From a virus (lineage: Duplodnaviria > Caudoviricetes), in IMG/VR virus record IMGVR_UViG_3300032307_000095, positions 1-62,271 of that record: 62,271 bases of DNA, one strand, 5' to 3'. The translations under genes and the position numbers were made by a program. Positions 28,072 through 41,101 of the stretch are shown here, one piece after another; within the stretch, counting starts at the first letter, position 1; each line of letters begins with the position of its first letter. A model generated the notes under the pieces. The model made no database searches and was not told where the DNA came from. It saw nothing but the letters and a program-made list of their open reading frames with translations.

Positions 28072-28097
28072 AGTAGTTTCCCTAACAATGTTAGGTG

Positions 28098-28607
28098 TCA
28101 GACAGAATGTTCAATCTCGCGCTTGAGATACCAGATTGCTTTCTCAAGGTCTTGCTTGCGACTGCCTTTGTGGTCGGCACGGGTGATGTACTTCACTGCG
28201 TTGCCCATGTTGTAGTTCAAACGCTTGGCCTCGATGAAGTCGATGGTCTCGATACCGCCTACCTTGTAATGGGCAGGGTGGTTGACCGGGTCGGACTTGG
28301 GTTCAATCATTTCGATTTGCGGGTTACGAATTCGGCCCTTACCTGCCTGATACGCTAGCTCCATCTCCTTCTCAACGCTGTTGTCAGACGTGCTGATATG
28401 CAGGGTCTTCCACTTCTTCGGCACAGGTCGTGGTGTTCTGGGCACGGGCATTGTTTTCTCCCCTGCTTTTTTCATTTCATATTTGATTACTGAAACGTGC
28501 TGTGCGGTAACGTTTAGCACTTCGGCTACCTTCTTAGGTGTAGCTGTTGGGTTGTTTCGCAGGTATGCACGGATTTTTGCTGCGGTTGAGTTTGCGTGTT
28601 TAGACAT
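28098..28607 (-). CDS. DUF3310 (T7 gp1.7-like) protein with N-terminal HTH-like extension
   Basis: DPVNHPAHY..IETIDFI..GNAVKY..R..K..DLEKAIWYL. Confidence 0.85.
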   Translation of the reverse strand: MSKHANSTAAKIRAYLRNNPTATPKKVAEVLNVTAQHVSVIKYEMKKAGEKTMPVPRTPRPVPKKWKTLHISTSDNSVEKEMELAYQAGKGRIRNPQIEMIEPKSDPVNHPAHYKVGGIETIDFIEAKRLNYNMGNAVKYITRADHKGSRKQDLEKAIWYLKREIEHSV

Positions 28608-28803
28608 TGTTTGCTCCAGTCTGTTGGTTAACGTAGTTCACTAAAATCTCCCTGATCTTTGCTTGTTTTGAATACTCGTGGTGCTTGCCAAAGTAGTCCA
28701 GCACATGCGCAGGTAGCCGTAGGCTTGTGCACAACATGCGTGGCTTCTTGCCGGGGCCCCGCCCCTTGCGTTCTTTTTTAGGTTCGATTGCTTCTGTGTT
28801 CAT
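28600..28803 (-). CDS. Small ribbon-helix-helix protein (BrnA-like)
   Basis: RGPGKK..SLRLP..VLDYF....QAKIREIL. Confidence 0.65.
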   Translation of the reverse strand: MNTEAIEPKKERKGRGPGKKPRMLCTSLRLPAHVLDYFGKHHEYSKQAKIREILVNYVNQQTGANNV

Positions 28804-28821
28804 AGCAGTGCTTCGGGTTGG

Positions 28822-29067
28822 TTAGTTGTCGGTTTCCGTCTTTCGACGATAGACAGGTGCATCAAGTTCAAGACCTTGGGATCGGCCCGATCGAACGGCC
28901 ACCACGCTTTTGTTACGAGGGCGTGGAGTTGTTCCCGCTGCGACTTGTTCAAGCGTGATGAATATGTGTGTGTTGCCGCATTCTTTTCTGCGCCAGATTT
29001 CGTTGGTGTCTTCATTGACTCGTGTCTCCAGTGTGCGGGTCCATACGCCACAGATAGGGCATTTCAT
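28822..29067 (-). CDS. NrdR-N-terminal-like zinc-ribbon protein
   Basis: MKCPICG..TLETR...WRRKECGNTHIFITLE. Confidence 0.7.
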   Translation of the reverse strand: MKCPICGVWTRTLETRVNEDTNEIWRRKECGNTHIFITLEQVAAGTTPRPRNKSVVAVRSGRSQGLELDAPVYRRKTETDN

Positions 29068-29324
29068 AGTTCGTGTTTGTTGAGGTAGGGTTTGATGTGG
29101 GGGGTGGCCCGGCTGTAAATGCCGAACGCTTTGTAGTCTGTGCTTACGACCGCACCCTTAGCACGAAACGCAACGTCTTGCAAAAAGATGCTGGGTTGCT
29201 TGTTGTACGCCCAATGAAAAGGCGAGTTGGGGTGGCAGTTGCAAGCTAGTTTTTTCATGGTGCCTTTCAAAACGAAACAGTTACGTTCAGGGTCGTAGCG
29301 CGTGAGCGCGATGGTGTCGATCAT
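29064..29324 (-). CDS. Hypothetical protein
   Basis: Stop/start overlaps with both neighbours. Confidence 0.55.
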   Translation of the reverse strand: MIDTIALTRYDPERNCFVLKGTMKKLACNCHPNSPFHWAYNKQPSIFLQDVAFRAKGAVVSTDYKAFGIYSRATPHIKPYLNKHEL

Positions 29325-29512
29325 TTCTTCATGTTCCTCACGTATGCCGCAAAGGATGCTGCGGTATCTCCAAGCACCTTCATCTTGTCGAACTCTCGGG
29401 CAACTTCTTCCAGTGTTGCGTTGCGCAGGTTGCGCTCGTAGTCGTGCTCCCGCTCCACTGCTTTGTTCCTTGAACTCACGTAGTCTTGAATGTCGTCGTC
29501 ATCTTCTCTCAT
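29321..29512 (-). CDS. Hypothetical protein
   Basis: Coupled ORF; RNATLEEVA motif common in small phage genes. Confidence 0.6.
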   Translation of the reverse strand: MREDDDDIQDYVSSRNKAVEREHDYERNLRNATLEEVAREFDKMKVLGDTAASFAAYVRNMKK

Positions 29513-29898
29513 AGTGCTCTCCTTATTTCTCTTACCTTGTCACGGGTCAAGCCCATGTTGAATACGCTGGTCATGCGAATTACTTTGATGGTCTTTTGCG
29601 CACTGCGTTTGCGGTTTGCCCGAATGTCAGGCTTGGGCTTTGGCTTGTCTTCCTTATCTCCAAGCATGTACACCGCCCGTGGGTAGCGCCGCGCATCGTC
29701 GTGCTCGTAGGTCCAGTTGGCAACGTGTATGCGCTTCTCACCAGCCTTGGTGCGTTTGTTCATGCGGTTCAGTACAGCATGTGCATCGTAGCGTCCAATG
29801 TCGGCGTAGTCGGCAAACTCCTGCGCAGTCATGCGCTTGAACTCCGCGAACGCTTCCAGTGCCTTGATGACATGCACGCCTGTGTTGGTTGTCCCCAT
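29509..29898 (-). CDS. Winged-HTH-like DNA-binding protein
   Basis: MTAQEFADYADI..YDAHAVLNRM and a basic C-terminus. Confidence 0.55.
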   Translation of the reverse strand: MGTTNTGVHVIKALEAFAEFKRMTAQEFADYADIGRYDAHAVLNRMNKRTKAGEKRIHVANWTYEHDDARRYPRAVYMLGDKEDKPKPKPDIRANRKRSAQKTIKVIRMTSVFNMGLTRDKVREIRRAL

Positions 29899-30188
29899 TA
29901 CTCTTGCTTCTCCTCAAGTATTGCTTTGATGAAGTTGCCGCAGCGTGTGCAGCAGTACCAGTAGCTGTTAGGCGGCAGGTTCTTGATGTAGGTGACTTGT
30001 TCCCAGCGGTGTTTGCATTCAGTCATAGTCCAGCCCCAACTCTCTGGCGTTCTCTGCCTTCTTGTCGAGGGCACGGGCTTGCTTGATGGCATCTCTTGCT
30101 TCAATCCAAGGCAGAACAGGCGCTCCGTTATGGTTTGCCAATACGCTTTCCAACGCCTCCAGCGCTAAGTCCAGTGCTTCGTCTTTGG

Positions 30189-30518
30189 TCATACCCCACT
30201 CCCTCTCTTGGCGCACGGCCAGCGGTTAGCCAGCGTGACCTGAACATATACGTCCGCAGCCAGATGCCGCTCGGACGGGATGCGCTCCAAAGATTGCTTG
30301 ACCATGTCAGTCATTTGGCCCACTGTCACAACCCCCGGTGGGATGCAGATCGTCACACCCGATTGAGAGTCGGCAACCCCTGCGATGTAGCCAAACACCC
30401 ACATGCGGTTGTCGCCCATGCGGGTGAGTAGCTCTTGCCCCGTAATCAGGGTGGACGACTGCTGAGCATGGACGGAGCAAGACAACAACAGTCCAGCAAT
30501 GGTTAAAAGTTTCCTCAT
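30189..30518 (-). CDS. Rap1a-like (T6SS amidase immunity family) exported protein
   Basis: Signal peptide ending VHA; TGQELL, GYIAGVAD, ICIP, TVGQM and terminal WPC. Confidence 0.75.
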   Translation of the reverse strand: MRKLLTIAGLLLSCSVHAQQSSTLITGQELLTRMGDNRMWVFGYIAGVADSQSGVTICIPPGVVTVGQMTDMVKQSLERIPSERHLAADVYVQVTLANRWPCAKRGSGV

Positions 30519-30700
30519 ACTGTCTCTCCTAGTATCTGTGCAACGATCTTCTTGATCCTGCTGTGTGCGTCTGCTTTCGTAAACGGCGCAGTCAGGATGT
30601 TGTCGATAGAGACGAGCGCCTCGTAGTATTCAGTGCCTTTCAGGGCATGCTCTAGTTTGTGCTCGTCTTCGGGGTAGTTGAACTCAAGGACGGCTTTCAT
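30515..30700 (-). CDS. Hypothetical protein
   Basis: MKAVLEFNYPED start, coupled to neighbours. Confidence 0.6.
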   Translation of the reverse strand: MKAVLEFNYPEDEHKLEHALKGTEYYEALVSIDNILTAPFTKADAHSRIKKIVAQILGETV

Positions 30701-30876
30701 TTAATCCGCCGCACTAGGTTTACCCACATGGGTTCTTCGCTCACCACAGGTGGGGGCACTATCTTCTCGCTCGGCGGTGTCCAGCCGTACTTGCGCCACA
30801 GTGCTTGCACATCGGAGCCACTGCTCCATTTGAAATCAGGATGACCCACGGGTATCCAAGGGATAGTCTTCTTCAT
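30697..30876 (-). CDS. Hypothetical 59-aa protein (not in the ORF track)
   Basis: MKKTIPW...DVQALWRKYGWTPPSE; ATGA overlaps on both sides. Confidence 0.6.
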   Translation of the reverse strand: MKKTIPWIPVGHPDFKWSSGSDVQALWRKYGWTPPSEKIVPPPVVSEEPMWVNLVRRIK

Positions 30877-31736
30877 TTGTTTGCTCCTTCTGCATCTAAC
30901 ACAACAACGAACACTTCACTGCTTACTCTGCAACCAGCATTCGTCACCATCTGTCTGTACTCGACCAGCTTCAGCAGACCCAGTCGGCCCCGTATTTGTT
31001 CGGGGAGGTCATTATCATCAAACAGTTGTACGTTGTCACCTGTTTTAACTATGTATTTACCCTGATCCAACACAACAAGCGCAGCATTGTTCGCGGAGTA
31101 TTTGCTCCGCACTTCCTCAATAGTGTCTGCGTCCAACTTCTTCTTGTCGTAACTCTCTAACATTGTTAGGTTCTCTGGCGCAAGCACTTTGGAAAACTGC
31201 TCGAACGCTTCGCGGTTGTGCTCCATAACAAACTTGAGGCATGCGGTCTCCAGCTTGTACTTGACTGCTTGCGTCTCGTGGTTAGACCGATTCACAGCGG
31301 AGGTGATTGCATCGCTCGCATCGCGTTCCGCTTTATCGAGTCGCTCGTTGAGATTACGCTTAACAAAGTACTTCTTAATGGCACTGAGCGCACGCTTGTC
31401 GTTGCTCGTGCGCATGCGGCTGTTGTTCACCCGGTGGTTGTATATGCCCACGCCGTGGTTACCACGGAAATAATCTGTCTCTATGTAGCCCAGCTTCTCA
31501 CCGTCGCAACTGATGTGAATTGTCTTGGGTGTAGCTGCGCTGGTGTCATTGTAGACAAGCCCCTCTAGCTGAAACCGCCATGTCGGGTTAGCCAAGTAAA
31601 GCGCATTGAACAGCTCGCCCATCATGGTCGATCTGAATTTGAAGTCGCCGCCCCAGTTGTTGTACCGTTGGTTGACCCGATTCAATGTCTCGGGCTCGAA
31701 CGATACGTTGGGCAGGTTGCGTGTGTTGAATCTCAT
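30873..31736 (-). CDS. Hypothetical early protein
   Basis: RBS AAGGAG before MRFNTRN; 287 aa. Confidence 0.7.
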   Translation of the reverse strand: MRFNTRNLPNVSFEPETLNRVNQRYNNWGGDFKFRSTMMGELFNALYLANPTWRFQLEGLVYNDTSAATPKTIHISCDGEKLGYIETDYFRGNHGVGIYNHRVNNSRMRTSNDKRALSAIKKYFVKRNLNERLDKAERDASDAITSAVNRSNHETQAVKYKLETACLKFVMEHNREAFEQFSKVLAPENLTMLESYDKKKLDADTIEEVRSKYSANNAALVVLDQGKYIVKTGDNVQLFDDNDLPEQIRGRLGLLKLVEYRQMVTNAGCRVSSEVFVVVLDAEGANK

Positions 31737-31746
31737 TGTGTTCTCC

Positions 31747-32601
31747 TTACCATTCAAACTTCTTGAGGATGTTGTCCACCTTGGACTTCAGCTCGCTTCG
31801 TGCATCGCTGCTTTCCTTGATGACTTCTATGTTTGCCCCTAACATTGTTAGCTCTAGCTGTCGGCGAGCTTCTTCGAGCAGGGGGTTGTTGGTCACGTTC
31901 AGCTTTGTCAGCAGCCCGCATAACTCCAGAGGGTTACTGATAAGTGAGTCGTGGTAACGCTTCTTGGCGTCGTCGCCTTCAACGTCTGTCAGCTTCTCCG
32001 ACATGGTTGTCAGCATGTTGTGTAGGCGGTTCCACGGCTCGCGCACTGCGTCAGCCAGTCGCTCCTTGAACTTGTCCTCGAACTCCTCGCGCATCTCTGC
32101 CAAGTCATCCGCAGGTATGTCCAATCGGAAGTCACCTGACTCGGGCATGGGGTTCACGGCTCGGCGGAAACCGAACTTGGCTTTGACTGTCTCCAAGTCT
32201 GGATAGTCCTCGGCCTTGTACATCGTGCCAAGATTCTTCTGCGCCTCGCCCACCAGTCGTGGGTACTCGGTGTAAAAGTTGTGGCACATCATGTCGAACG
32301 TGCGCTCAAAGTCATTCATGGTCTGCTTGTATTCCATGAACAGCTTGGTCGGCAGCATGCGCTCGCCCTTGTCAGCCCACGGTAGGGTGTGCTGGTTGTG
32401 GTACAGGCGAACGCGAGCCGCGAACTTCTCAATGTCTTTGCGCAGGCTCGTACCCGCAAACAGATTCTTCTTGGTCTGCGATGCCCCGGCCACTGCCGAT
32501 GCGTCTGCATTCACTTTGTCCGTAACCTCTCGGTCGATCTTCGACGCAGGCCACACACTGATGTTCAATTCAACTAACACTGCTGATGCGCTGATACTCA
32601 T
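31747..32601 (-). CDS. DUF3150-like protein
   Basis: Start MSISASAV after AGGAG; TLPW, DYP..V..KF and LNVTNNP motifs; adjacent to vWA/AAA genes. Confidence 0.65.
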   Translation of the reverse strand: MSISASAVLVELNISVWPASKIDREVTDKVNADASAVAGASQTKKNLFAGTSLRKDIEKFAARVRLYHNQHTLPWADKGERMLPTKLFMEYKQTMNDFERTFDMMCHNFYTEYPRLVGEAQKNLGTMYKAEDYPDLETVKAKFGFRRAVNPMPESGDFRLDIPADDLAEMREEFEDKFKERLADAVREPWNRLHNMLTTMSEKLTDVEGDDAKKRYHDSLISNPLELCGLLTKLNVTNNPLLEEARRQLELTMLGANIEVIKESSDARSELKSKVDNILKKFEW

Positions 32602-32629
32602 TTGGTTTCTCCTAACATTGTTACTCGGA

Positions 32630-32854
32630 TCACTTCTTGTCTGGCTTGCCAGCCATACGTGCCATGTTCGCAACCTCGTCGGGCACGATCTTCATCGTGA
32701 AGTCCCGCTCGGATGGGTACGCAAAGTAGGCGGTGTTGCCTTCTGCATACTTCTCCTCCCATACATGCGCCTTCGACAGAATCTCGGCCACAGTCACTGC
32801 GTCCTTGACAGACAGCAGCACCTGCGTATCCCAGCCCAACTTTAATACCATCAT
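32630..32854 (-). CDS. Hypothetical protein
   Basis: GGAG RBS before MMVLKLG. Confidence 0.6.
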   Translation of the reverse strand: MMVLKLGWDTQVLLSVKDAVTVAEILSKAHVWEEKYAEGNTAYFAYPSERDFTMKIVPDEVANMARMAGKPDKK

Positions 32855-32864
32855 GTTGATCTCC

Positions 32865-34067
32865 TCAGTTGCTGATGTGAATTGTTTTGCCGTTTGGAGC
32901 GACACTTGTGTTACCTCCTGTGATGGCCCACATAACCGGAGCAGTCCAGTCACTGCCCCAGTCATTGCCGACATAGCCATCTGTGAGAACGATGATGCAC
33001 TCAGGAACAATCTTCTTCTCCTTCAGATACTCAGACATGCAGCTTGGGCTTGTGCCCCCGCCACCCTTGGGTTTGGTAGAGCTAACAATGTTAGATACGT
33101 CAGCGTCGGCATACTCCTCGTGCGCCGCCACGTCACTGTCCCAATAGATCAGGTCAACCTTCTCGGGGTTTACTTCTTCCGCGATACCCTTTACCTCGGA
33201 CAGAAACTCTGCGAGCTCAGGCCCACCGATCGAACCCGATGTGTCGATACCCACAACGATGTGGCCCACCTTCTCACCCACCATTGATGGCATGTAGATA
33301 CCAGTAGACAGGAAGCGCCGGTTGACCCTGCGCCAGCTTGATGTGTCTTTGGCTCGGCAGATTGCTTTCACATACTCACGCAACTCCTCGCGCCAGTTGA
33401 CCTTGGGCTCCAGCAAGTCTTGCAACTCGCGGTCGAGTCCACCCGCACCCTTGCCGTTGATCTTCTGGTGCGCCATCAACCCCTGCCGGATAGCTTGGTC
33501 AATGTCCCGCGCCAGTTCCTTCTTCTGCTCGTCGGTCATCTCCTTCGCACCATCCCAGTCGTGCTCGTCGATACCATCGCCATCATCGCCGCCGCCTTCG
33601 CCATCCTTTTGCTCTTGCTTGAGAATGTCGAACACTTGCTTCGTGTTCATGCCACGGAACCGCTCGTCGATCAAGCCTATCTTCTTGCCAGCATGTGGCC
33701 CATCCCTGTACATAGGCATGGCGATGACGTTCTCGCCCGGATCGAGGTCTCTGAGCATGAGGTTAATAACGTAGTCACAAGCCCGATTGGCTAACGCGTG
33801 ATCTTCGTCATGTAACTTCTTCCACGTAGTCATGTGGCGGTACATCTTGTGCCCCGCCTCGTGTGCAATCACAAAGGCAAGCTCGGAGTCACGTAGCTTG
33901 CGCACAAACTCACGACCATAAATCTCATCGCGACCGTTGGTGCATGCAGTCGGCACGTTGTCGGCTACCTTCGTCTTGCCCACCATCAAGATACCTTGCA
34001 ACAATGCAAACTTGGGGTGTCGCATCAAGGTGATCTTGGCCTTCTGAACCTTGCGTTCCTCTAACAT
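32865..34067 (-). CDS. DUF2201-like metallopeptidase + vWA domain protein
   Basis: HEAGH, acidic linker, MIDAS DTSGS, GGGT and LTDG. Confidence 0.88.
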   Translation of the reverse strand: MLEERKVQKAKITLMRHPKFALLQGILMVGKTKVADNVPTACTNGRDEIYGREFVRKLRDSELAFVIAHEAGHKMYRHMTTWKKLHDEDHALANRACDYVINLMLRDLDPGENVIAMPMYRDGPHAGKKIGLIDERFRGMNTKQVFDILKQEQKDGEGGGDDGDGIDEHDWDGAKEMTDEQKKELARDIDQAIRQGLMAHQKINGKGAGGLDRELQDLLEPKVNWREELREYVKAICRAKDTSSWRRVNRRFLSTGIYMPSMVGEKVGHIVVGIDTSGSIGGPELAEFLSEVKGIAEEVNPEKVDLIYWDSDVAAHEEYADADVSNIVSSTKPKGGGGTSPSCMSEYLKEKKIVPECIIVLTDGYVGNDWGSDWTAPVMWAITGGNTSVAPNGKTIHISN

Positions 34068-34081
34068 TGTTAGCTCCTTGT

Positions 34082-34456: not shown

Positions 34457-34474
34457 GTCTTGCTCCTAACATTG

Positions 34475-34771
34475 TTAGCTCCTCATGTGTTGTTTATCTT
34501 CCTCTGCTGTCAACAGCAAAGTAACGAATCCGAGCACGGCGTAGTAGTCGTGCCCTTCGTACAGCACCTCTCTCGGTGCCGCTGTGTGTATGCTTGGCCT
34601 GACGCCCCACCGAATCAAAGTGAACCGATACGGCGGAGCCTTCAGGCTAAACACCTGCTGTGCTATGTCCAAGTCATACCCCCAAACGATTTGCCGGAGC
34701 TTGCGCATCTTCCACTCAAGCTCCTCCCATCCAAGCGGGTAGTTCTGAAATGCAATGGTTGCGTATAACAT
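34475..34771 (-). CDS. Hypothetical protein (start MLYATIAF)
   Basis: Starts immediately after the AAA gene; its TAA stop lies inside a palindrome copy. Confidence 0.55.
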   Translation of the reverse strand: MLYATIAFQNYPLGWEELEWKMRKLRQIVWGYDLDIAQQVFSLKAPPYRFTLIRWGVRPSIHTAAPREVLYEGHDYYAVLGFVTLLLTAEEDKQHMRS

Positions 34772-34772
34772 C

Positions 34773-35837
34773 TCAAAGCAGGTCTTGATTCTTCGCAACC
34801 CAGTCCGAGAACGCCTTGCAACTGAACGCAATGGATTGTTTGGATGGTGTACGTGCGATGTTGATAGCAAAGCATGCTTGCCACTCGGGCTCGAACCTCT
34901 CCAGATAGGACATGAACGGAGCGATCGTTGTCTTGTCCACACGGGCGATAGCACCGAACACCACGATGGCACATGCGCCGGGGCTTGTGGGTACAGTCGT
35001 AGTCTTTGGATGCTCGATGGTTGACTCCCATGTTGGCAGTTGGTCCGAGAACTCGATGTACGCCTGCATGTCACGGGCTGCACTCTCACCGATCGCACCA
35101 GTCAGCGCGGCAATCACTGCGTCACTGTCGTTGTCCTTGCGTGTCCTAACAATGTTAGATGCAGTCTCAAGTGAGCGTGGTGATACGAACGCTGTCTGTG
35201 TCTTCCTTGGGTTGTAGATGTAAGGGTTGTCGCCCTGTCCACCATCCGTGTAGCTTGCCAGTGCATGAGGGAAACGATTCACCCACGCAATCACCTCGGG
35301 CTCGATGCCTTTATTGATGGCCCAGTCGATCCACTGGTCTGCGTCAGGCTTGCTGATCGTCACCGGAACCAGTCGGTTACGGCTGTGTGCTTTGAGGGAG
35401 TCGCCCACGCCGTCCGTGCTCAGGTTACCCGTCAAGAATACGATCGTGTCCTTGGTCAGTGGGATGTCACCGAGTCGTGGGTTGGCCTTCTCAAGCATGG
35501 GGTGCAGCATGTTCTTCACCGGGTCGGCACCCTTGGTGAACTCGTCGAGCATGATGACCAGTGGCTTGTTCTCGTGGATGCGGAAGCGTGCGTTGGGGTA
35601 GTAGCGTGTTGTCTTCGTGTCGTGGTCGATCACGGGCATGGCAATGTCGCCCAAGTCCATGTTCGGTACGTCTATGTACGCATACTCAAACCCGAGCGAG
35701 TCGGCAATGTTTTCCAGCAGTGATGACTTGCCGATGCCGGGCTCGCCTTGCAACAGGAAGCGGGTGGTTGGGTTGGTGCGGATCAAGTTGGCCGCTTGCT
35801 TGAGCGTGATGCTCTTACCGAAAGATACTTCTGACAT
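34773..35837 (-). CDS. MoxR-like AAA+ ATPase
   Basis: GEPGIGKS, MLDEF, TGN, Arg finger RNRL and SPRS. Confidence 0.9.
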   Translation of the reverse strand: MSEVSFGKSITLKQAANLIRTNPTTRFLLQGEPGIGKSSLLENIADSLGFEYAYIDVPNMDLGDIAMPVIDHDTKTTRYYPNARFRIHENKPLVIMLDEFTKGADPVKNMLHPMLEKANPRLGDIPLTKDTIVFLTGNLSTDGVGDSLKAHSRNRLVPVTISKPDADQWIDWAINKGIEPEVIAWVNRFPHALASYTDGGQGDNPYIYNPRKTQTAFVSPRSLETASNIVRTRKDNDSDAVIAALTGAIGESAARDMQAYIEFSDQLPTWESTIEHPKTTTVPTSPGACAIVVFGAIARVDKTTIAPFMSYLERFEPEWQACFAINIARTPSKQSIAFSCKAFSDWVAKNQDLL

Positions 35838-35932
35838 TTTGATTTCCTTCTAATGAACTCTGATTGAACTCTGATGTGAACCTAACATTGTTAGGTGGAT
35901 TTGGCGGGACGCATTTGTCCTCACCAGCTTAT

Positions 35933-35961
35933 ATTGTAACACAGATAGATACCTAAGTCAA
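35933..35961 (-). promoter_or_regulatory. Early sigma70 promoter TTGACT-17-TACAAT (copy 1)
   Basis: Part of a ~50-bp repeat 35923-35972 / 38643-38692. Confidence 0.85.
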
Positions 35962-35966
35962 GCAAT

Positions 35967-36191
35967 CTAGTCATTGGTCGTGACTAAATCTCTAGCCCTT
36001 ACGTACCTGTCTGTTAGCTGGGCCATCGCTTGCATGGCCCCGTGGTCGTCGCTCTCAGCAGCGATCCACCACATCTGATCACGGCCTCGCTTCTTGGCTA
36101 TACCTACGAAGTCGTACCATTGGCGCTCAACGACAATGAAGTTGCCGAACTTCCCGCGCAGCAGCATCCATTTCTTTTTGCGCCTCGGCAT
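35967..36191 (-). CDS. Hypothetical early protein
   Basis: Coupled ORF with GAGGAG RBS. Confidence 0.55.
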   Translation of the reverse strand: MPRRKKKWMLLRGKFGNFIVVERQWYDFVGIAKKRGRDQMWWIAAESDDHGAMQAMAQLTDRYVRARDLVTTND

Positions 36192-36385
36192 CAATGCTCC
36201 TCGAAGTAATAGCCGTCATCCTTGTGGACGATCCTGCCCTTGTTCTCGTACACACTCATCAGCCAGCGTGAATACTTGTTGGCTCTCGCCTCCTCTCTCG
36301 CTGCGTTCAGGTTGGCCGATGCGTTGCGCCACAGCAGTGCGAACACTGCAATCATGAGCACGTACTCCAGATCAGTGAAGCTCAT
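36191..36385 (-). CDS. Small membrane protein
   Basis: N-terminal TM segment YVLMIAVFALLW. Confidence 0.6.
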   Translation of the reverse strand: MSFTDLEYVLMIAVFALLWRNASANLNAAREEARANKYSRWLMSVYENKGRIVHKDDGYYFEEH

Positions 36386-36630
36386 TTCATCACCATCGCT
36401 TTCCTTGTGACTATCTCGGCTACCACAGTGGGTAACACTGTTAGGGGCTCGGACTCGCCGAACTCATCGCGCAAGCGTGTCCACACCGTGGCGTTCCACT
36501 TCGCTGTGCGTTGGTTGGGGACGTGCATCCACCGACCGCTTGCCCTGTCCACCACATCGAACCCATCATTGACGGGCACGATGATGCATCCCTTGTAGCC
36601 TGTCGGCACTCCGATGTTTACTTGTTTCAT
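36382..36630 (-). CDS. Hypothetical early protein
   Basis: RBS GGAGAAGG; coupled to the next ORF. Confidence 0.6.
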   Translation of the reverse strand: MKQVNIGVPTGYKGCIIVPVNDGFDVVDRASGRWMHVPNQRTAKWNATVWTRLRDEFGESEPLTVLPTVVAEIVTRKAMVMK

Positions 36631-36642
36631 TTACCTTCTCCT

Positions 36643-36813
36643 TTAACTGAATATTTCTTCGACTGATTCGACGTCCCATTGGGAGTCGTTGATGTTTACG
36701 TTGTCGGCTTCAATCCGTGCCCATGCTTTGGCCTCGGCATCGTCTTCGTTCTCAGCCTCCACAGTCACAGTGATGTAACTCGTGCGGCGCAACTCCACTT
36801 CAAATGTCTTCAT
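36643..36813 (-). CDS. Small acidic 56-aa protein (not in the ORF track)
   Basis: MKTFEVELRRTSYITVTVEAENEDDAEAKAW...; ATGA overlap with the upstream gene. Confidence 0.65.
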   Translation of the reverse strand: MKTFEVELRRTSYITVTVEAENEDDAEAKAWARIEADNVNINDSQWDVESVEEIFS

Positions 36814-37958
36814 GCTTTCTCTCCTTGCTGTTTAAAGTCCTCGAACAACATCTCTGCATAGTTTGTCGTAGGCACATGGCCCACGGGCATCTGCTTGAGC
36901 TCCATAATCTCCTCGGCGAACACAAGCGTTAGGAACTTGCTCACTGCTGTTGATGCAGTGGAATAGCTAAGCTCGACGGGGATGTTCGAGGCATGCACCC
37001 CCATGCTGAACGACCGCACACCTGACGCCACGCACATGAGTCCCAGCGATGCCTTGAGAAAGTTGGCATGCTTGGTCTCCTCGGGCTGGTCACTGCGCAT
37101 GAGGTCCAACACCTCGTGGCATTTGCCGTACCACTCAGCTCTGCGCTTCTGTGATTCCTGCACCCGTGCTTCGTGCTCAGGGCTTCCCGCTTCAAAGTGG
37201 TAGCCATACCCCGACCATGTCGGCTTGTTGTTGAACGCCGACGCGAACACCTGTGTGTTGACGTACGCATGCTCAACCTCCCTGTGCTGGCCTTGGCCCT
37301 GATACCGGCGCTCCATCCTCGTCGTTACTCCGAGCGTGTCGGCAAGCATCGTCTTGGGCAGTGCCAGTATCTTCTTTGCCTCGAACGGGTCGTCCTCGTT
37401 GGACTTCTCGCGCTCTTGTGTGAGCAGTGAGACCATGCCCTTGTGGTAGTTCAGCATCTCTTTGTACTTGGCCCTAACATTGTTAGCCTTGGCCCGGTTG
37501 GGTGCCCATACGCGCACACCCTCAGCGTTCCTGACTTCCCACTTACCAGCACGGCCCGGCTCCACGGGTACGCGCACCAGCTCGATGCTCTGGCCTTGCT
37601 TGAGTGGGTGCTTGTTGTCCCGGCGGTTGAGGTACAGGATGAGCATGCCCTTCGTTCTGTTTGCGCTCGTATCGGGCAGCAACCCTGTGATGAACGCGCA
37701 CGTAAACGATGACGGCCACTTGCCCGGCGTGACCACCACACCGCCGTCTTGCTTGAATGTCACCACCGCCGTGTCGTAGAGCACGCACTCGAGACTACCC
37801 TCTGCGTTCTCTTGTATATACATGTGCGCATCCCTGCGTGCGCCCAGTGGCTTGCGCCCCATACGTGCACCGCTTCGCAGTGGCTTGATCTGATCGAACC
37901 ACTTCTTGGCCCCTTCGTAGCTGTATATGTACGGCAGTCTGCGTGTTGATTGAAACAT
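36810..37958 (-). CDS. Hypothetical early protein, 382 aa
   Basis: Long ORF with AAGGAG RBS. Confidence 0.75.
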   Translation of the reverse strand: MFQSTRRLPYIYSYEGAKKWFDQIKPLRSGARMGRKPLGARRDAHMYIQENAEGSLECVLYDTAVVTFKQDGGVVVTPGKWPSSFTCAFITGLLPDTSANRTKGMLILYLNRRDNKHPLKQGQSIELVRVPVEPGRAGKWEVRNAEGVRVWAPNRAKANNVRAKYKEMLNYHKGMVSLLTQEREKSNEDDPFEAKKILALPKTMLADTLGVTTRMERRYQGQGQHREVEHAYVNTQVFASAFNNKPTWSGYGYHFEAGSPEHEARVQESQKRRAEWYGKCHEVLDLMRSDQPEETKHANFLKASLGLMCVASGVRSFSMGVHASNIPVELSYSTASTAVSKFLTLVFAEEIMELKQMPVGHVPTTNYAEMLFEDFKQQGEKA

Positions 37959-37959
37959 G

Positions 37960-38127
37960 TCAATTCTCCTTGTTGAGTCGGTAAACCTTGATCTGCTTCA
38001 AGGTCGGGTGGCTGGTCTGGTATCGCTTCTTGGCGATCTCCATCGTTGCACATTCCATAGTCTCTGCAACCCACATGCCGAACCTTGCGCTCCAGCCTGT
38101 GACGTAATATCTATTGAGTCCGCTCAT
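37960..38127 (-). CDS. Hypothetical protein (start MSGLNRYY)
   Basis: ATGA overlap with the upstream ORF. Confidence 0.55.
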   Translation of the reverse strand: MSGLNRYYVTGWSARFGMWVAETMECATMEIAKKRYQTSHPTLKQIKVYRLNKEN

Positions 38128-38309
38128 ACACCACTCCCATCTAACAGCCCGAGGGCTAACATTGTTAGGAACACCACAGCGAGCACAACAAACCAGATCA
38201 GCTCGGCTCGGTCGCTCATTGACTCCCTGTGCGTTGGTATGGGCTCGGCTGGCCCCGTGTATTTGACGGGGGGCTTGGTTTGGGGTTTGGGTTTGTTTGG
38301 TGCAGTCAT
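38124..38309 (-). CDS. Small membrane protein
   Basis: C-terminal TM LIWFVVLAVVFLTMLALGLL; LTML is encoded by a palindrome copy. Confidence 0.55.
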   Translation of the reverse strand: MTAPNKPKPQTKPPVKYTGPAEPIPTHRESMSDRAELIWFVVLAVVFLTMLALGLLDGSGV

Positions 38310-38539
38310 GAGCGTGTCTGCTTCTGGTTGGTGTTGCGCAGGGTGGTGGGTGCACTCTGGGTGGTAACGTATTGGTAGTTACCCTTGCCGTACTCTTGGA
38401 CAACGCACCAACTCATGCGCTCCATACGGGCAGCTTCTTCGCCGCAGAACTTGCACAGGCGGTAGCCGAGGGCCCAACGCTCGATGTGCACATCGTCGCC
38501 GCACTCGCGGCACTCTTTCCAATCGTGATCGACTGACAT
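38306..38539 (-). CDS. TraR/DksA-like C4 zinc-finger protein
   Basis: CRECGDDVHIERWALGYRLCKFC fits C-x2-C-G...R...C-x2-C; first gene after an early promoter. Confidence 0.6.
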   Translation of the reverse strand: MSVDHDWKECRECGDDVHIERWALGYRLCKFCGEEAARMERMSWCVVQEYGKGNYQYVTTQSAPTTLRNTNQKQTRS

Positions 38540-38652
38540 GTCTAACCTTTCTAATTGACTTCTGATGGGCCTAACATTGTTAGGTGAGGACTGGATGGGG
38601 CTTGGTACGTGCGAGCCTGAACCCACATTTACTTTTCTCCCAACCAGCTTAT

Positions 38653-38681
38653 ATTGTAACACATTATAAGACCTAAGTCAA
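38653..38681 (-). promoter_or_regulatory. Early sigma70 promoter TTGACT-17-TACAAT (copy 2)
   Basis: Same -35/-10 and flanks as copy 1; only the middle of the spacer and one upstream base differ. Confidence 0.85.
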
Positions 38682-38716
38682 GCGATCTAGTCTTGGCCGA
38701 GACTAAAGCTCCCCTC

Positions 38717-39157
38717 TCATTTCTGCTTTGGTTTGGGCAGTGCAGCAAGGGGTTGGTCGCCCCATGCGTCGAGCAGCAGCTCGGGAATCACCGCAGCTTC
38801 ACCTCCACTCCCCTTTGTGTATTCGTAGATAGCACGGCGCATGATGGACGAGTTGGGCAGCAGGGTGGCTCGGGAGAGGGCGTCGAGTGGGGCGCGGTCG
38901 GTGGGTGGCAGTGTCAGGACGATGGTGCGGTTGCGGGTGATGCGGGTGGGCAGTGAGGGGTCGGCACGGAGCAGGGCGGGGATGTTGGGTGGGCGGTAGC
39001 TGTCGGGGTCGTGGGTGAAGGCGTTGATGGCATCGCGTACGGTGGCGGCGATGGTGCGCTTGTGGGTGGCGGCGTGGTGCTTGACCTGTTTGTGCAGGAG
39101 GGCAGTGATGTTGACGCTAACAATGTTAGATAGGCGGAAGGGTTCGAGAGGGCGCAT
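38717..39157 (-). CDS. Tandem ribbon-helix-helix DNA-binding protein
   Basis: Two RHH-like units: IVSVNI..LHKQV..A..KRTIAATVRDAINAF and TIVLTL..DRAPLDALS..LPNSSIMRRAIYEY. GGAG RBS. Confidence 0.6.
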   Translation of the reverse strand: MRPLEPFRLSNIVSVNITALLHKQVKHHAATHKRTIAATVRDAINAFTHDPDSYRPPNIPALLRADPSLPTRITRNRTIVLTLPPTDRAPLDALSRATLLPNSSIMRRAIYEYTKGSGGEAAVIPELLLDAWGDQPLAALPKPKQK

Positions 39158-39228
39158 TGTGTACTCCAGTAAAGTGCAAAAAGAGGGTGTTGGGAGCATA
39201 ACATATATGTAATGGTGAGGTCAAGCGT

Positions 39229-39705
39229 GTTACGTAACGCGGGATTACATATAATCTGAAAACGTAACGCGCTAAGTTGTTGATTTGATTGAAGAAAAAG
39301 ATGGTTGGGGGTGTTTATGTTTTAAAGTTTTAAGAAATAATATTGAACAGGAGTTTTTTTTCTTCGGAGATTTGCCTCGTTGCGTCGCACTTGCTGGAAG
39401 GCCTTGCCGATCTCAGAAAAAAAAGTCCACTCTCAATTTTTAAAACGCATAACATTTCCCAATCTAGCATCCATGCGGGTTTCAAGAGGTTTTTGCCCTT
39501 AAAAAACGTAACGCGAAGTTTCACACGGCCCCCCAAAAACGTAACGCGCCCCGCTACTGCCGCCCAGAGAACGGTCATCGGGAAAATTTAGGCAAAAAAG
39601 AGTTTGACGAAAGCCAAAAATAGTGATATGCTGCACGCAGCATATCAGTCAGGGCAACGGTGCAACGCCGCTACTGCCGACCAGAGAACGGTCATCAGAA
39701 AATTT
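39229..39705. other. Non-coding iteron-like region, candidate replication origin
   Basis: ACGTAACGCG at 39232, 39262, 39506, 39539; 29-bp direct repeat 39551-39579 / 39668-39696; IHF-consensus site 39273-39285; AT-rich core. Confidence 0.55.
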
Positions 39706-39763
39706 CTGACCAACCCCCAAAGACAAAAGCCCCGCCTAACAATGTTAGGGCAGGGCCAGACGC

Positions 39764-39788
39764 AAAAAAGCCCCGGACATGCCGGGGC
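39764..39788 (-). terminator. Intrinsic terminator after the first early transcript
   Basis: Minus strand GCCCCGG-catgt-CCGGGGC followed by TTTTTT. Confidence 0.8.
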
Positions 39789-39805
39789 GTTGGAAGGTGG
39801 AAGGG

Positions 39806-39994
39806 TTACTCGAAACGCAAACCAGATGATGGGTCAATCAGGCCGACGATGTTGCGAACGTTGACGGCCCGCCCGATTTCGCTGATTGCTTGCGTTAGCT
39901 CAGGCAAGGTAATCAAGCCACTCGCATACATTTGGATTTGATCCATCGCCATGTTGTGCAGGGTTTGCATTTGGTTTTGTGTCATGGTTTCCAT
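39806..39994 (-). CDS. Hypothetical early protein
   Basis: RBS AGGAG overlapping the end of palindrome 40005. Confidence 0.6.
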   Translation of the reverse strand: METMTQNQMQTLHNMAMDQIQMYASGLITLPELTQAISEIGRAVNVRNIVGLIDPSSGLRFE

Positions 39995-40038
39995 TTGGTT
40001 TCTCCTAACAATGTTAGGGGGCCAAGGCCCCCCGTGGT

Positions 40039-40557
40039 TTACAGCATGCTCAGGTCAACACCCAAGGCGATCAAAGCCCCGCCGATTTTGGTCAGCGCAT
40101 CGGATTCTTTATCGCTCAGAGACTCAGCACGTTTGCCAGCCTTATAAAGTACGGTCAATTCCTCGATGTATCGGCGCGCCAGCGAACGGGTTTCGCGAGT
40201 ATTGCCACCCTCAGACTCGCCAGCCTCAGCGCCAGCCTCAGACTTTTCAGGCACGCCCTCGATGTATTCCTGTGCATACTTACGCACACGCGCCCAGATT
40301 GTGGAAGGGTTCGAGTGTTGCGCCGCCTTGAGCACCGCGAACAATGCTTTCTTTTCGGCATGCACAGGCTTGGCCGTGTCGCTGGTGTCATTGTGCTCGA
40401 CCAGATACCACTCAGCAGGAAGGACAGCGCACAGGGTTTGCGCATACTCGCGCATAGCACCATACGAGGAGGCGAGGGCATCGCCGACCGCGAGACGCTT
40501 GGCATTGAGAACGTCAGCAGTGACGGGGGAAACGGAAGTGATGTTGACTTGAGACAT
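40039..40557 (-). CDS. First early gene, helical hypothetical protein
   Basis: 172 aa; promoter and palindromes upstream. Confidence 0.7.
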   Translation of the reverse strand: MSQVNITSVSPVTADVLNAKRLAVGDALASSYGAMREYAQTLCAVLPAEWYLVEHNDTSDTAKPVHAEKKALFAVLKAAQHSNPSTIWARVRKYAQEYIEGVPEKSEAGAEAGESEGGNTRETRSLARRYIEELTVLYKAGKRAESLSDKESDALTKIGGALIALGVDLSML

Positions 40558-40645
40558 TTTCTAACCTTCTAACAATGTTAGCCCTTGCAATGTGCGCCCG
40601 GCTATCTGAGGCATCGAGACAACCCTTCGCTGTCTTGATGTGTCC

Positions 40646-40674
40646 ATTGTAGCAAAACGCACCACACTATGCAA
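40646..40674 (-). promoter_or_regulatory. Early promoter TTGCAT-17-TACAAT
   Basis: Bracketed by palindrome copies at 40569 and 40698. Confidence 0.65.
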
Positions 40675-41101
40675 GCAGAACGTGAACAATAAATGGGCTA
40701 ACAATGTTAGGTCATGACCAGAGATGAAGACCAAAGCCGGGGCCAACGCCAAAAAAATCCCAAAAACGAAGACCCCACCGTACCGGCACCCCCCAAATAG
40801 GCCAAAAGGGGACCCGAAATCCACTACACACTGTGCCGCACAATCGATGAGCTGTTTTCAAACTCGGATACCGCGGTTTTAAAATTCATTCGGGTTTACC
40901 CCACCCCCGCCATACAGGGAACACACCCCCTTCCAAAATAAACGGGTCGGCCAAAAAAAATTTTGCAAAAATTTTGGGTTTGATGTTACATTTCAGTCGT
41001 TGGTTAAGCGTCTGATCCGAACTCAACAGCGGCAGGGTCGCGTAGGATTGGGGGAACCCGGTCGCCAACACCCCATTCATTTTCATTGGTGCGGTTACCC
41101 G

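What the first reader, a model, noticed from the sequence alone, without database searches (positions are those of the whole stretch)
28082..40710. Early arm tiled with a 13-bp palindrome, CTAACA(A/T)TGTTAG: candidate undescribed operator or DNA-coating system
Seen: 16 exact copies (28082, 31157, 31839, 33082, 34061, 34466, 35146, 35882, 37474, 38156, 38571, 39117, 39736, 40005, 40569, 40698) plus near copies at 32612 and 36432. I found no exact copy in the other ~49.5 kb; chance expectation at equal base frequencies is about 0.002 per genome. The central base is A in 8 and T in 8 on the plus strand, so orientation looks irrelevant, as expected for a dsDNA site bound by a dimer. Seven exact copies lie wholly inside CDSs in two different frames (read as LTML, SNIV or NNV), so the DNA motif is maintained at the expense of protein sequence. 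From 31.1 to 40.7 kb the sites recur roughly every 0.6 kb regardless of gene boundaries. Known analogues: mycobacteriophage L5 stoperators (asymmetric) and E. coli matS/SlmA sites (palindromic, region-restricted). Inference: a protein coats or roadblocks the whole early block, to silence it, to protect or organise first-entering DNA, or to sponge a host factor.
Basis: partly seen in the sequence, partly recalled or inferred. Interest (0 to 1): 0.92.

Follow-up and report, generated by a model that had tools for sequence, protein, structure and literature searches.

The report
Palindromic protein-docking sites on phage early arm
A freshwater phage writes one 13-letter mirror-symmetric DNA word about every 600 bases along its early genes, even bending its own protein sequences to hold it, most likely as landing sites for a paired regulator made from its very first gene.

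Summary
In detail: there are 16 exact CTAACAWTGTTAG copies, all at 28082-40710, against none in 100 shuffles, plus two near copies. The window is a complete 62-kb phage record with no integrase, ParB or recognisable RNA polymerase.

Among 80 related contigs the word is under selection at the nucleotide level. The ATPase peptide SNIVR is spelled as a site in 35 of 40 "13-bp" relatives but in only 2 of 26 "14-bp" relatives, which use other codons. Relatives carry their own versions: CTAACA-NN-TGTTAG, CTGACA-NN-TGTCAG and GTAACA-NN-TGTTAC. At shared positions the proteins change to fit the local version.

Site orientation is neutral once copies that supply a start codon are set aside. One copy always lies in untranscribed DNA upstream of the first early promoter.

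The first early gene (40039-40557) belongs to an unnamed family. Its two deep subfamilies track the 13- and 14-bp versions, and it is modelled as a symmetric dimer.

Best reading: these are double-stranded-DNA docking sites of this protein, used for early-gene feedback and roadblock. No binding has been shown. This is a new variant of a known kind (stoperators, Cluster O repeats), and the scan has noted similar arrays on other phage DNA.

The parts
40698..40710 (.). Exact site, 23 nt upstream of the -35 of the first early promoter (centre about -65), in DNA that is not predicted to be transcribed
   Evidence: An equivalent copy lies upstream of the first early promoter in the window and in 29 of 29 relatives shown, degenerate in L047.
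40646..40674 (-). First early promoter-like element TTGCAT-17-TACAAT
   Evidence: Read from the sequence. The same layout holds in relatives. The consensus scan did not list it because only 3 of 6 bases match in the first hexamer.
40569..40581 (.). Exact site in the 5' leader of the first early gene (about +58 to +70), directly before its ribosome-binding site
   Evidence: Present in some relatives only.
40039..40557 (-). First early gene, 172 aa (P0001): candidate dimeric reader of the sites, member of an unnamed helical family
   Evidence: Co-variation with site version. Dimer model ipSAE 0.77 against best control 0.00. No Pfam, PHROG, PDB or BFVD match.
40005..40017 (.). Exact site between the stop of the first gene and the next start. 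Its end supplies the GGAG of the next ribosome-binding site.
39736..39748 (.). Exact site at the top of a longer GC-rich hairpin followed by a T-run (terminator-like)
   Evidence: The flanks CCCTGCC / GGCGGGG were read from the sequence.
39117..39129 (.). Exact site inside ORF 38717-39199 (read SNIV)
38653..38681 (-). Sigma-70-like promoter TTGACT-17-TACAAT
38571..38583 (.). Exact site about +63 to +75 after that promoter, before the next ribosome-binding site
38156..38168 (.). Exact site, probably between two short genes
37474..37486 (.). Exact site inside gene 36810-37958 (GCT AAC AAT GTT AGG, ANNVR). Relatives with the 14-bp version read (L/I/T/V)TNVR here.
36432..36444 (.). Near copy (2 mismatches) inside ORF 36382-36630
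35933..35961 (-). Sigma-70-like promoter TTGACT-17-TACAAT
35882..35894 (.). Exact site about +32 to +44 after that promoter, in the leader of the ATPase gene
35146..35158 (.). Exact site inside the MoxR-type ATPase gene (TCT AAC ATT GTT AGG, SNIVR)
34466..34478. Exact site at a gene junction. The TAA inside it ends the 207-aa GTG-start ORF 34475-35098, a frame that overlaps the ATPase gene. Its end supplies the ribosome-binding site of gene 34082-34456.
34061..34073 (.). Exact site that contains the ATG start of the DUF2201/VWA gene 32865-34067
33082..33094 (.). Exact site inside the DUF2201/VWA gene (TCT AAC ATT GTT AGC, SNIVS). One relative reads SDICQ (TCT GAC ATT TGT CAG) here.
32612..32624 (.). 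Near copy (1 mismatch) overlapping the ribosome-binding site of gene 31747-32600
31839..31851 (.). Exact site inside gene 31747-32673 (CTA ACA ATG TTA, LTML)
31157..31169 (.). Exact site inside gene 30873-31757 (LTML)
28082..28094 (.). Last exact site, after the stop of gene 28098-28607, before a terminator-like hairpin and the promoter-like element of the site-free replication block

Best explanation
The 13-bp palindromes are docking sites on double-stranded DNA for a phage-encoded symmetric dimer. The dimer is most likely the 172-aa product of the first early gene (40039-40557). That gene is read by host RNA polymerase from a sigma-70-like promoter that has one site about 65 bases upstream and one in the leader. 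As the protein accumulates it is expected to occupy these two sites and the others, which lie roughly every 0.6 kb down to 28.1 kb. That would feed back on its own promoter and place roadblocks behind the three early promoters and inside the long genes, shutting down or silencing the early arm, and possibly the early arm of a co-infecting relative with the same site version. The replication block beyond 28.0 kb, which has its own promoter and no sites, would be left alone. Shown: the sites are real, under nucleotide-level selection, version-specific, orientation-neutral, partly in untranscribed DNA, and co-vary with the subfamily of the first gene. Inferred: that this protein binds the sites, that it binds as a dimer in the cell, and that the effect is repression or roadblock rather than activation or DNA organisation.
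For: (1) Selection on the DNA word. The ATPase peptide SNIV(R/S) is spelled as a site in 35 of 40 13-bp-type loci and in 2 of 26 14-bp-type loci, which keep the peptide with other codons. The sites use the rarest codons: AGG is 6.3% of Arg, CTA 3.9% and TTA 3.4% of Leu.

(2) Proteins bend to the local version at shared positions. ANNVR (GCT AAC AAT GTT AGG) becomes (L/I/T/V)TNVR (xTA ACA AAT GTT AGG). SNIVS becomes SDICQ (TCT GAC ATT TGT CAG) in the lineage whose sites are CTGACA-NN-TGTCAG.

(3) Concerted change within genomes. L064 has 10 CTGACA-NN-TGTCAG copies and L065 has 9 GTAACA-NN-TGTTAC copies. Single mismatches fall on positions 1 and 6 of the half-site, and TAAC is almost invariant.

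(4) Symmetry. Once the copies whose ATG serves as a start codon are set aside, the centre is A 59: T 59 in other intergenic copies and T 81: A 64 in intragenic copies, out of 541 non-redundant copies.

(5) DNA level rather than RNA level. A copy lies 22-37 nt upstream of the -35 of the first early promoter in the window and in 29 of 29 loci shown, degenerate in L047. No promoter-like element is predicted upstream of it on that strand. The bare hairpin is worth only -1.1 (RNA) or -0.9 (DNA) kcal/mol.

The family of the first gene splits into two subfamilies that are 15-22% identical. The window's type is found in 27 of 40 13-bp-type loci and 0 of 26 14-bp-type loci. The other type is found in 15 of 26 14-bp-type loci and 1 of 40 13-bp-type loci. 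Loci without either are mostly cut short of that position. The other shared genes are about equally similar to the window in both types: ATPase 87.2 vs 85.8%, DNA polymerase 72.3 vs 71.1%. L058 has an unrelated first gene and no exact site in its whole 15-kb locus, about 8.8 kb of it early arm downstream of that gene.

(7) Dimer model: ipSAE 0.77, best of 3 controls 0.00. That mark was reached by 20 of 30 proteins solved as pairs and 1 of 23 solved as single chains. The runs agree in at least 80% of their contacts, and partner pLDDT is at least 79. The interface is symmetric and leaves most of helix 84-100 (WARVRKY) free.

(8) Three of three promoter-like elements in the site-bearing arm are followed by a site at about +32 to +75. 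The promoter-like element of the replication block is not.
Against: - No binding was measured or modelled.
- The protein has no recognisable DNA-binding domain and no fold match, either for the full model or for the N-domain model (pLDDT 93).
- The gene sits next to the universal site, so co-variation may partly reflect linkage. The 80 loci are related metagenome contigs, not independent samples, and other accessory genes also differ between the two types.
- Some genomes mix versions: L057 15+4, L059 5+10, L086 8+6, and L044 and L069 have a 13-bp copy upstream of the promoter in 14-bp-majority genomes. At the universal position the spacing is 1, 2 or 3. A rigid dimer should not tolerate this.
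- Lineages with the L075-type first gene (no clear homology: hhalign probability 6%) still hold 3-5 exact copies.
- No site overlaps a -35 or -10 element, so classical operator action is not indicated.
- The direction of the effect is unknown.
Confidence: 0.5

Rival explanations
1. The sites are docking sites on double-stranded DNA for a different protein, either another phage product or a host regulator such as a Crp/Fnr-type dimer. The first early gene merely hitch-hikes next to the most conserved site.
For: The first-gene protein has no known DNA-binding fold. The 14-bp version resembles the PrfA box TTAACA-NN-TGTTAA, which appeared among the paper hits (search listing only). Other DNA-binding-looking proteins lie in the arm: an RHH-like 67-aa protein, an HTH plus DUF3310 protein, and a tandem RHH-like ORF. 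Versions are mixed in some genomes. L075-type lineages keep 3-5 copies without a recognisable family member.
Against: The RHH-like 67-aa protein is conserved in both types with no type-specific change, and it is present in L075. The tandem RHH-like ORF occurs in only 8 of 40 13-bp-type loci and 0 of 26 14-bp-type loci. No other gene shows two complementary alleles. A host factor would have to differ in half-site spacing between the hosts of phages whose ATPases are 86-88% identical. The host is unknown, and no relative was found in 185,579 species' genomes.
Confidence: 0.25
2. The same protein-site pairs exist, but their purpose is not transcriptional. Possible purposes are organising, condensing or protecting the arm that enters the cell first, or ratcheting it in.
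For: Spacing is more even than random: window CV 0.40, median CV 0.6 over 53 distinct loci, 32 of 53 with p < 0.05. Long genes carry internal copies. The arm starts next to the terminase genes, in a conserved non-coding G-rich stretch. No site overlaps a promoter hexamer.
Against: No ParB_N domain is present in six frames. The physical genome ends are unknown, because the 123-base terminal overlap only shows that the record closes on itself. Even spacing is also expected from sites placed at gene junctions.
Confidence: 0.12
3. The word acts as a small hairpin in single-stranded DNA or RNA (5-bp stem, 3- or 4-base loop). Candidate roles are a translational operator or processing signal, or a hairpin promoter of the kind recalled for coliphage N4.
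For: Changing the spacing from 1 to 2 to 3 bases is a mild change for a loop. Half-site changes are compensatory in L064 and L065. 167 of 541 copies hold a start codon, a stop codon or both. One copy tops a terminator-like hairpin. The ATPase is distantly (23-26%) like those of N4-like phages.
Against: The hairpin is barely stable. The universal copy lies upstream of the first promoter, where no transcript is predicted. All copies in a genome share one stem sequence instead of varying by compensated pairs, and hybrid copies such as GTAACA..TGTTAG, which break the outer pair, recur. Orientation is neutral. No RNA polymerase was recognised: the 2055-aa virion protein matches DarB-like, LPD39 and internal-virion-protein families only, and PF00940 was not found, although the control for that search was uninformative.
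Confidence: 0.08
4. The identical 13-mers are linkers for recombination that shuffles gene cassettes.
For: Ends of homology with relatives fall within 25 nt of a site centre in 21 of 128 cases, against 9.1 expected. Several joints in relatives' contigs lie beside sites.
Against: The excess follows gene junctions, not sites. Junctions without a site have such an end in 11 of 18 cases, junctions with a site in 5 of 7, and intragenic sites in only 1 of 7. The idea does not explain version-specific codon choice.
Confidence: 0.03

Closest known systems
17-bp dyad repeats of Cluster O mycobacteriophages (TGTTCGG-NNN-CCGAACA, 34 copies in Corndog); PMC4351075, passages read
   Same: Both are invariant inverted repeats with an A/T-rich centre, present in dozens of copies. 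Many copies are intergenic and about a third lie inside genes. They are denser in the non-structural arm and show no meaningful orientation. The phage has no integrase and is not obviously temperate. The function is stated as unknown.
   Different: The sequence and length differ, and the host phylum differs. The Cluster O copies occur throughout the genome. The passages read name no reader protein. Here there is a co-varying candidate reader and evidence that coding sequence is adapted to the site.
Stoperators of Cluster A mycobacteriophages (L5 gp71), as characterised in the discussion of PMC4351075; other details recalled
   Same: A 13-bp site occurs in many copies through transcribed DNA and is thought to stop elongating polymerase. 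As recalled, the site version co-evolves with the repressor.
   Different: Stoperators are asymmetric and oriented with transcription, and they belong to temperate phages with an immunity repressor. Here the sites are palindromic and orientation-neutral, no integrase is present, and the candidate reader belongs to no known family.
KorB and its 13-bp palindromic OB operators on plasmid RK2 (recalled; not read here)
   Same: A 13-bp palindrome with a degenerate centre occurs in about a dozen copies at variable distances from promoters, including far from any promoter.
   Different: KorB is a ParB-family protein. No ParB_N domain is present in this genome in six frames.
Repressor c of Streptomyces phage phiC31 and its conserved inverted repeats (recalled)
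   Same: Many copies of an inverted repeat across the early region are bound by one phage protein.
   Different: phiC31 is temperate. The protein-atlas lead to this family (score 0.81, below the reliable range) was not borne out: hhalign probability 0.1%.
Start-associated sequences of Cluster K mycobacteriophages, as mentioned in PMC4351075
   Same: A short repeat is fused to translation starts. Here 123 of 541 copies hold the downstream start codon.
   Different: Start-associated sequences are tied to starts. Here a third of the copies are intragenic and one lies upstream of a promoter.

Membership tests
Cluster A stoperator / immunity-repressor system | Asymmetric site oriented with the direction of transcription | tested here: not met
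   The site is a palindrome. The centre is A 59: T 59 in intergenic copies and T 81: A 64 in intragenic copies once the copies that supply a start ATG are set aside.
Cluster A stoperator / immunity-repressor system | Temperate phage with an integrase and an HTH immunity repressor | tested here: not met
   No PF00589 or PF00239 match in six frames of the whole record. No repressor family was found in the PHROG and Pfam scans of the ORFs tested. No relative was found in bacterial genomes.
Cluster A stoperator / immunity-repressor system | Many dispersed copies in transcribed DNA, with the site version co-evolving with its reader | tested here: met
   16 copies. Site versions follow the subfamily of the first gene.
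Cluster O-type dyad repeats | Invariant inverted repeat with a variable A/T centre, in tens of copies, intergenic and intragenic, in a phage that is not obviously temperate | tested here: met
   The sequence itself differs, so this is the same kind of feature, not the same element.
ParB/KorB with parS- or OB-type palindromes | A ParB-family protein (ParB_N domain) encoded by the element | tested here: not met
   No PF02195 match in six frames. The control search matched in 10 of 14 reference genomes.
phiC31 repressor c with conserved inverted repeats | Reader homologous to repressor c | tested here: not met
   hhalign of A1 against phiC31 gene c gave probability 0.1%.
N4-type hairpin promoters (features recalled) | Short stem with a 3-base loop | tested here: met
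   The word folds as a 5-bp stem with a 3-base loop, but weakly (-1.1 kcal/mol).
N4-type hairpin promoters (features recalled) | A virion RNA polymerase, and a few promoters placed upstream of early genes | tested here: not met
   No polymerase was recognised in the large virion proteins. PF00940 was not found, but the control for that search was uninformative. A third of the copies are intragenic.
Classical operator (repressor occluding the promoter) | Site overlaps the -35 or -10 element or the transcription start | tested here: not met
   Sites lie at about -65 and at +32 to +75 relative to the predicted starts.

The most novel reading that the evidence does not exclude
A large unnamed family of first-expressed phage proteins (325 clusters at 50% identity) has a fold unlike any solved structure. 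It acts as a self-addressed clamp for the phage's own early arm. The dimer reads a private palindrome whose half-site spacing and sequence switch rapidly between otherwise near-identical phages. This would give lytic phages a form of heteroimmunity or kin discrimination (shutting down early genes of co-infecting relatives that share the word), or would ratchet and organise the entering DNA.
Probability: 0.15. Interest if true: 0.85.

Novelty: new variant of a known kind. Interest (0 to 1): 0.6.

Why it matters
Dispersed exact palindromes in apparently lytic phages have been reported without an explanation (Cluster O; PMC4351075). This scan keeps finding them on other phage DNA.

This lineage offers an unusually clean natural experiment:
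- hundreds of related contigs;
- at least four site versions;
- coding sequences visibly rewritten to keep a site at the same place;
- one candidate reader gene that switches allele with the site version.

If the pairing is confirmed it would assign a function to a widespread unnamed protein family: 1474 proteins at E <= 0.001 and 325 representatives at 50% identity. It would add a new DNA-binding fold. It would also give a tractable model of how a regulator and a dozen or more of its sites change specificity together.

Tried and rejected
- Near-identity searches of both arms against deposited phage genomes found nothing. The first-gene protein has no tblastn match there either.
- A literature search for the word itself returned only coincidences (an Aca11 operator, PrfA boxes, primers). 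I read passages of PMC12658196; the other hits I saw only in the listing.
- A search for follow-up work on the Cluster O repeats found none in the library searched (listing only). Supplements were not consulted.
- Fold searches of the full model (PDB and BFVD) and of the N-domain model (PDB) gave no match with E <= 0.001. The profile search of PDB sequences gave nothing below E = 1.7.
- The atlas lead to the phiC31 repressor was not borne out. One source names a family member 'RuvA-like DNA-binding subunit'. I treat this as an unverified label.
- Candidates rejected as the determinant of site spacing: the RHH-like 67-aa protein, the tandem RHH-like ORF, and the accessory clusters that differ between types.
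- The recombination-linker idea was rejected.
However, its lineage keeps 3-5 exact copies, and L094 gives a weak, unconvincing similarity to the family. I therefore count only L058 as a clean case, and that is a single lineage, because L090 does not cover the arm.
- L022 is a rearranged contig and was left out of the argument.
- Public runs: the stretch is held mainly by freshwater metagenomes. Two RNA-library runs hold small shares as contigs of relatives. Contigs cannot show transcript ends, so nothing about roadblocks or processing can be said.
- Distant family members could not be placed on DNA (see below), so the family-wide test of co-variation was not done.

Full report
**Observation.** All lie between 28082 and 40710, and no copy appeared in any of 100 dinucleotide-preserving shuffles. 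The central base on the + strand is A in 8 and T in 8. Allowing two mismatches gives 20 matches against 0.64 expected. These include the near copies at 32612 and 36432, and two matches at chance level outside the arm. With the near copies, the spacing from 31157 to 40710 averages 596 bases with CV 0.40, which is more regular than all but 5e-5 of random placements. With exact copies only the CV is 0.56, p = 0.012.

**Setting.** The window is a whole IMG/VR virus record whose ends overlap by 123 bases.
- Genes from about 40.8 kb down to 17.6 kb run on the minus strand. They include small unknown genes, a MoxR-type AAA ATPase (34773-35837) and a DUF2201/VWA protein (32865-34067). Beyond 28.0 kb they include DNA polymerase, helicase and primase-helicase.
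- The plus-strand arm from 41.0 kb holds terminase, portal and virion proteins, including a 2055-aa DarB-like/LPD39 protein.
- In six frames there is no tyrosine or serine integrase and no ParB_N domain.
- No RNA polymerase was recognised. For PF00940 the control search was uninformative.
- No close relative is in the deposited-phage collection or in 185,579 bacterial and archaeal species genomes.
- The phage therefore looks lytic and dependent on host polymerase. Strong sigma-70-like elements lie on the minus strand at 38681-38653, 35961-35933 and 28036-28009. A TTGCAT-17-TACAAT element lies at 40674-40646.

**Where the copies sit, read on the coding strand.**
- One copy is 23 nt upstream of the first promoter (40698).
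- Three copies are 32-75 nt downstream of the three promoter-like elements of the arm (40569, 38571, 35882).
- Several copies are fused to gene junctions. In these, the TAA inside the word serves as a stop, the ATG as a start, or the final TAGG(AG) as a ribosome-binding site (40005, 34466, 34061, 32612).
- One copy tops a terminator-like hairpin (39736).
- One copy precedes the terminator and promoter of the site-free replication block (28082).
- Six or seven copies are inside genes.
- The 3-kb gap between 28.1 and 31.1 kb coincides with accessory genes that few or no relatives share.

**Relatives.** A scan of IMG/VR with the ATPase found 303 related stretches, of which the best 80 were kept. 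These are related metagenome contigs, not independent samples.
- Many carry the same 13-bp word in 7-17 copies.
- Others carry none, and instead carry CTAACA-NN-TGTTAG (centre mostly AA or TT).
- L064 carries CTGACA-NN-TGTCAG ten times, L065 carries GTAACA-NN-TGTTAC nine times, and L062 and L047 also use CTAAC-AWA-GTTAG.
- In 10 of 10 longer records the copies fall in one 7-18-kb stretch, with one or two outliers in four of them.

**Selection on the DNA.**
- The ATPase peptide SNIV(R/S) is conserved throughout. It is spelled TCT AAC ATT GTT AG(G/A/C), which is a site, in 35 of 40 13-bp-type loci. It is spelled that way in only 2 of 26 14-bp-type loci, which use TCG/AGC, GTA/GTC/GTG and CGN codons.
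- The sites use the genome's rarest codons: AGG is 6.3% of Arg, CTA 3.9% and TTA 3.4% of Leu.
- At two shared positions the protein itself changes to hold the local version. ANNVR (GCT AAC AAT GTT AGG) becomes (L/I/T/V)TNVR (xTA ACA AAT GTT AGG). SNIVS becomes SDICQ (TCT GAC ATT TGT CAG).
- Single mismatches concentrate on half-site positions 1 and 6, while TAAC is almost invariant.

**Double-stranded DNA or hairpin?**
- Of 541 non-redundant exact copies, 178 are intragenic, 79 hold the next gene's ATG, 44 hold a stop, 44 hold both, and 196 are otherwise intergenic.
- The excess of A or AA centres on the coding strand comes from the copies that supply a start codon. Elsewhere orientation is neutral.
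- A copy, in the genome's own version with a few exceptions, lies 22-37 nt upstream of the -35 of the first early promoter in the window and in all 29 loci shown; it is degenerate in L047. No promoter is predicted upstream of it on that strand. At least this most conserved copy must therefore act as DNA.
- The bare hairpin is marginal, at -1.1 kcal/mol as RNA and -0.9 as DNA.
- All copies in a genome share one stem sequence, and hybrid copies that break the outer pair recur.
- These points favour a symmetric reader of duplex DNA.
- Against that reading, spacing of 1, 2 and even 3 bases occurs at the same position in different relatives, and some genomes mix versions. A loop would tolerate this more easily than a rigid dimer. 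In L086 the mixture follows a mosaic of segments, so at least part of the mixing is hitch-hiking through recombination.

**The candidate reader.** The first gene after the first promoter (40039-40557, 172 aa) is the only gene found with two complementary alleles.
- The window's type occurs in 27 of 40 13-bp-type loci and 0 of 26 14-bp-type loci. A positional counterpart of 170-183 aa occurs in 15 of 26 14-bp-type loci and 1 of 40 13-bp-type loci (L047).
- Most loci with neither allele stop short of that position. L057's copy was found at the other end of its circularly permuted record and is of the 13-bp clade, matching its majority of 13-bp copies.
- The two types align as one family at 15-22% identity, with two invariant Trp residues and a conserved W-x-R-(V/I)-(K/R) helix. 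Other shared genes are about equally similar to the window in both types.
- L058 has an unrelated first gene and no exact copy in its whole 15-kb locus, about 8.8 kb of it early arm downstream of that gene. Its ATPase spells SNIVK as AGC AAC ATT GTT AAG.
- Lineages with the L075-type first gene lack the upstream copy and have only 3-5 exact copies. Their first gene may be a very remote relative of the family.
- The family is large: 1474 proteins at E <= 0.001 and 325 representatives at 50% identity. It is unnamed, has no Pfam or PHROG match, and has no fold match.
- A homodimer model scored ipSAE 0.77, against 0.00 for the best of three controls. That mark was reached by 20 of 30 proteins solved as pairs and by 1 of 23 proteins solved as single chains. 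The runs agree in at least 80% of contacts, and partner pLDDT is at least 79. This supports pairing but does not show it.

**Mechanism.** I take the copies to be docking sites of this dimer. The layout has one site at about -65, one at +58 to +70 of its own promoter, and sites at +32 to +75 behind the other two promoters of the arm. None lies behind the promoter of the replication block, and infill copies lie inside long genes. This layout fits negative feedback plus roadblock or silencing of the early arm. The fast switching of site version between phages that are otherwise 86-88% identical in their ATPase fits a specificity under conflict, such as exclusion of co-infecting relatives. That is inference. 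Binding, stoichiometry and the sign of the effect are all untested.

**Comparison with what is known.**
- The closest described case is the 17-bp dyad repeat of Cluster O mycobacteriophages. It has 34 invariant copies with TTT/AAA centres, a third of them inside genes, no orientation, no integrase, and a function stated as unknown (PMC4351075, passages read).
- Stoperators of Cluster A phages share the logic but are asymmetric, oriented, and belong to temperate phages.
- KorB/OB (recalled) shares the 13-bp palindrome and promoter-distant sites but needs a ParB protein, which is absent here.
- The phiC31 repressor lead failed.
- Earlier notes of this scan describe similar arrays on other phage DNA. 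One note makes the same claim that a first early protein co-varies with the palindrome. I did not test those notes.

**Verdict.** The protein-site reading is well supported by comparative evidence. I file this as a new variant of a known kind.

Noticed in passing
window 40585-40640 and the matching place in L007, L011, L013, L023, L033, L040, L050, L065 and others: A conserved stem-loop (CATGCAAAC...GTTTGCAT type) lies right after the start of the first early transcript. A conserved box ATTATTGTTCACG lies just upstream of the -35, where an UP element would sit.
   Followed up: no
window 40720-41000: A conserved G-rich, T-run-rich non-coding stretch lies between the small-terminase side and the first site. 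It is shared by both site types and could be a packaging or end region.
   Followed up: no
L075 1038-1200 and 1598-1640 (also L092, L093): Tandem 19-bp iterons (TGCCTATTTTTTAAGCA plus 2 bases), 7 + 2 copies, occur in the lineage whose first early gene is replaced. They look like a replication origin.
   Followed up: partly
window 28800-30876: This block of small accessory genes has no site and few or no counterparts in 80 relatives. It includes a protein with a signal-peptide-like start (30189-30518) and an HTH-like 129-aa protein (29509-29898).
   Followed up: partly
window 32865-34067 and 34773-35837: A DUF2201 (metallopeptidase-like plus VWA-like) protein is paired with a MoxR-type AAA ATPase. 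The ATPase is 23-26% identical to those of N4-like Vibrio, Pseudomonas and Alteromonas phages. PHROGs labels the former 'HNH endonuclease', which the Pfam hits do not support.
   Followed up: partly
window 38717-39199: An ORF with two RHH-like units in one chain carries a site in its 5' part. It is found in only 8 of 40 13-bp-type relatives.
   Followed up: partly
window 28600-28803: A 67-aa RHH-like protein with an AT-hook-like KGRGPGKKPR tail is highly conserved in both site types. Its own target is unknown.
   Followed up: partly
window 816-1517 and 52418-53032: Free-standing homing-endonuclease-like genes lie in the structural arm: one GIY-YIG with NUMOD3, and one with a weak Hom_end match.
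   Followed up: no
L022 1-5900: The contig upstream of the ATPase is a different module with a second DUF2201-like gene and no sites. The contig looks rearranged or chimeric.
   Followed up: no
L086 whole locus: This is a mosaic genome in which CTGACA-NN-TGTCAG copies sit in L064-like segments and 13-bp copies sit in segments that resemble other lineages. One hybrid copy, CTGACAAATGTTAG, is present.
   Followed up: yes
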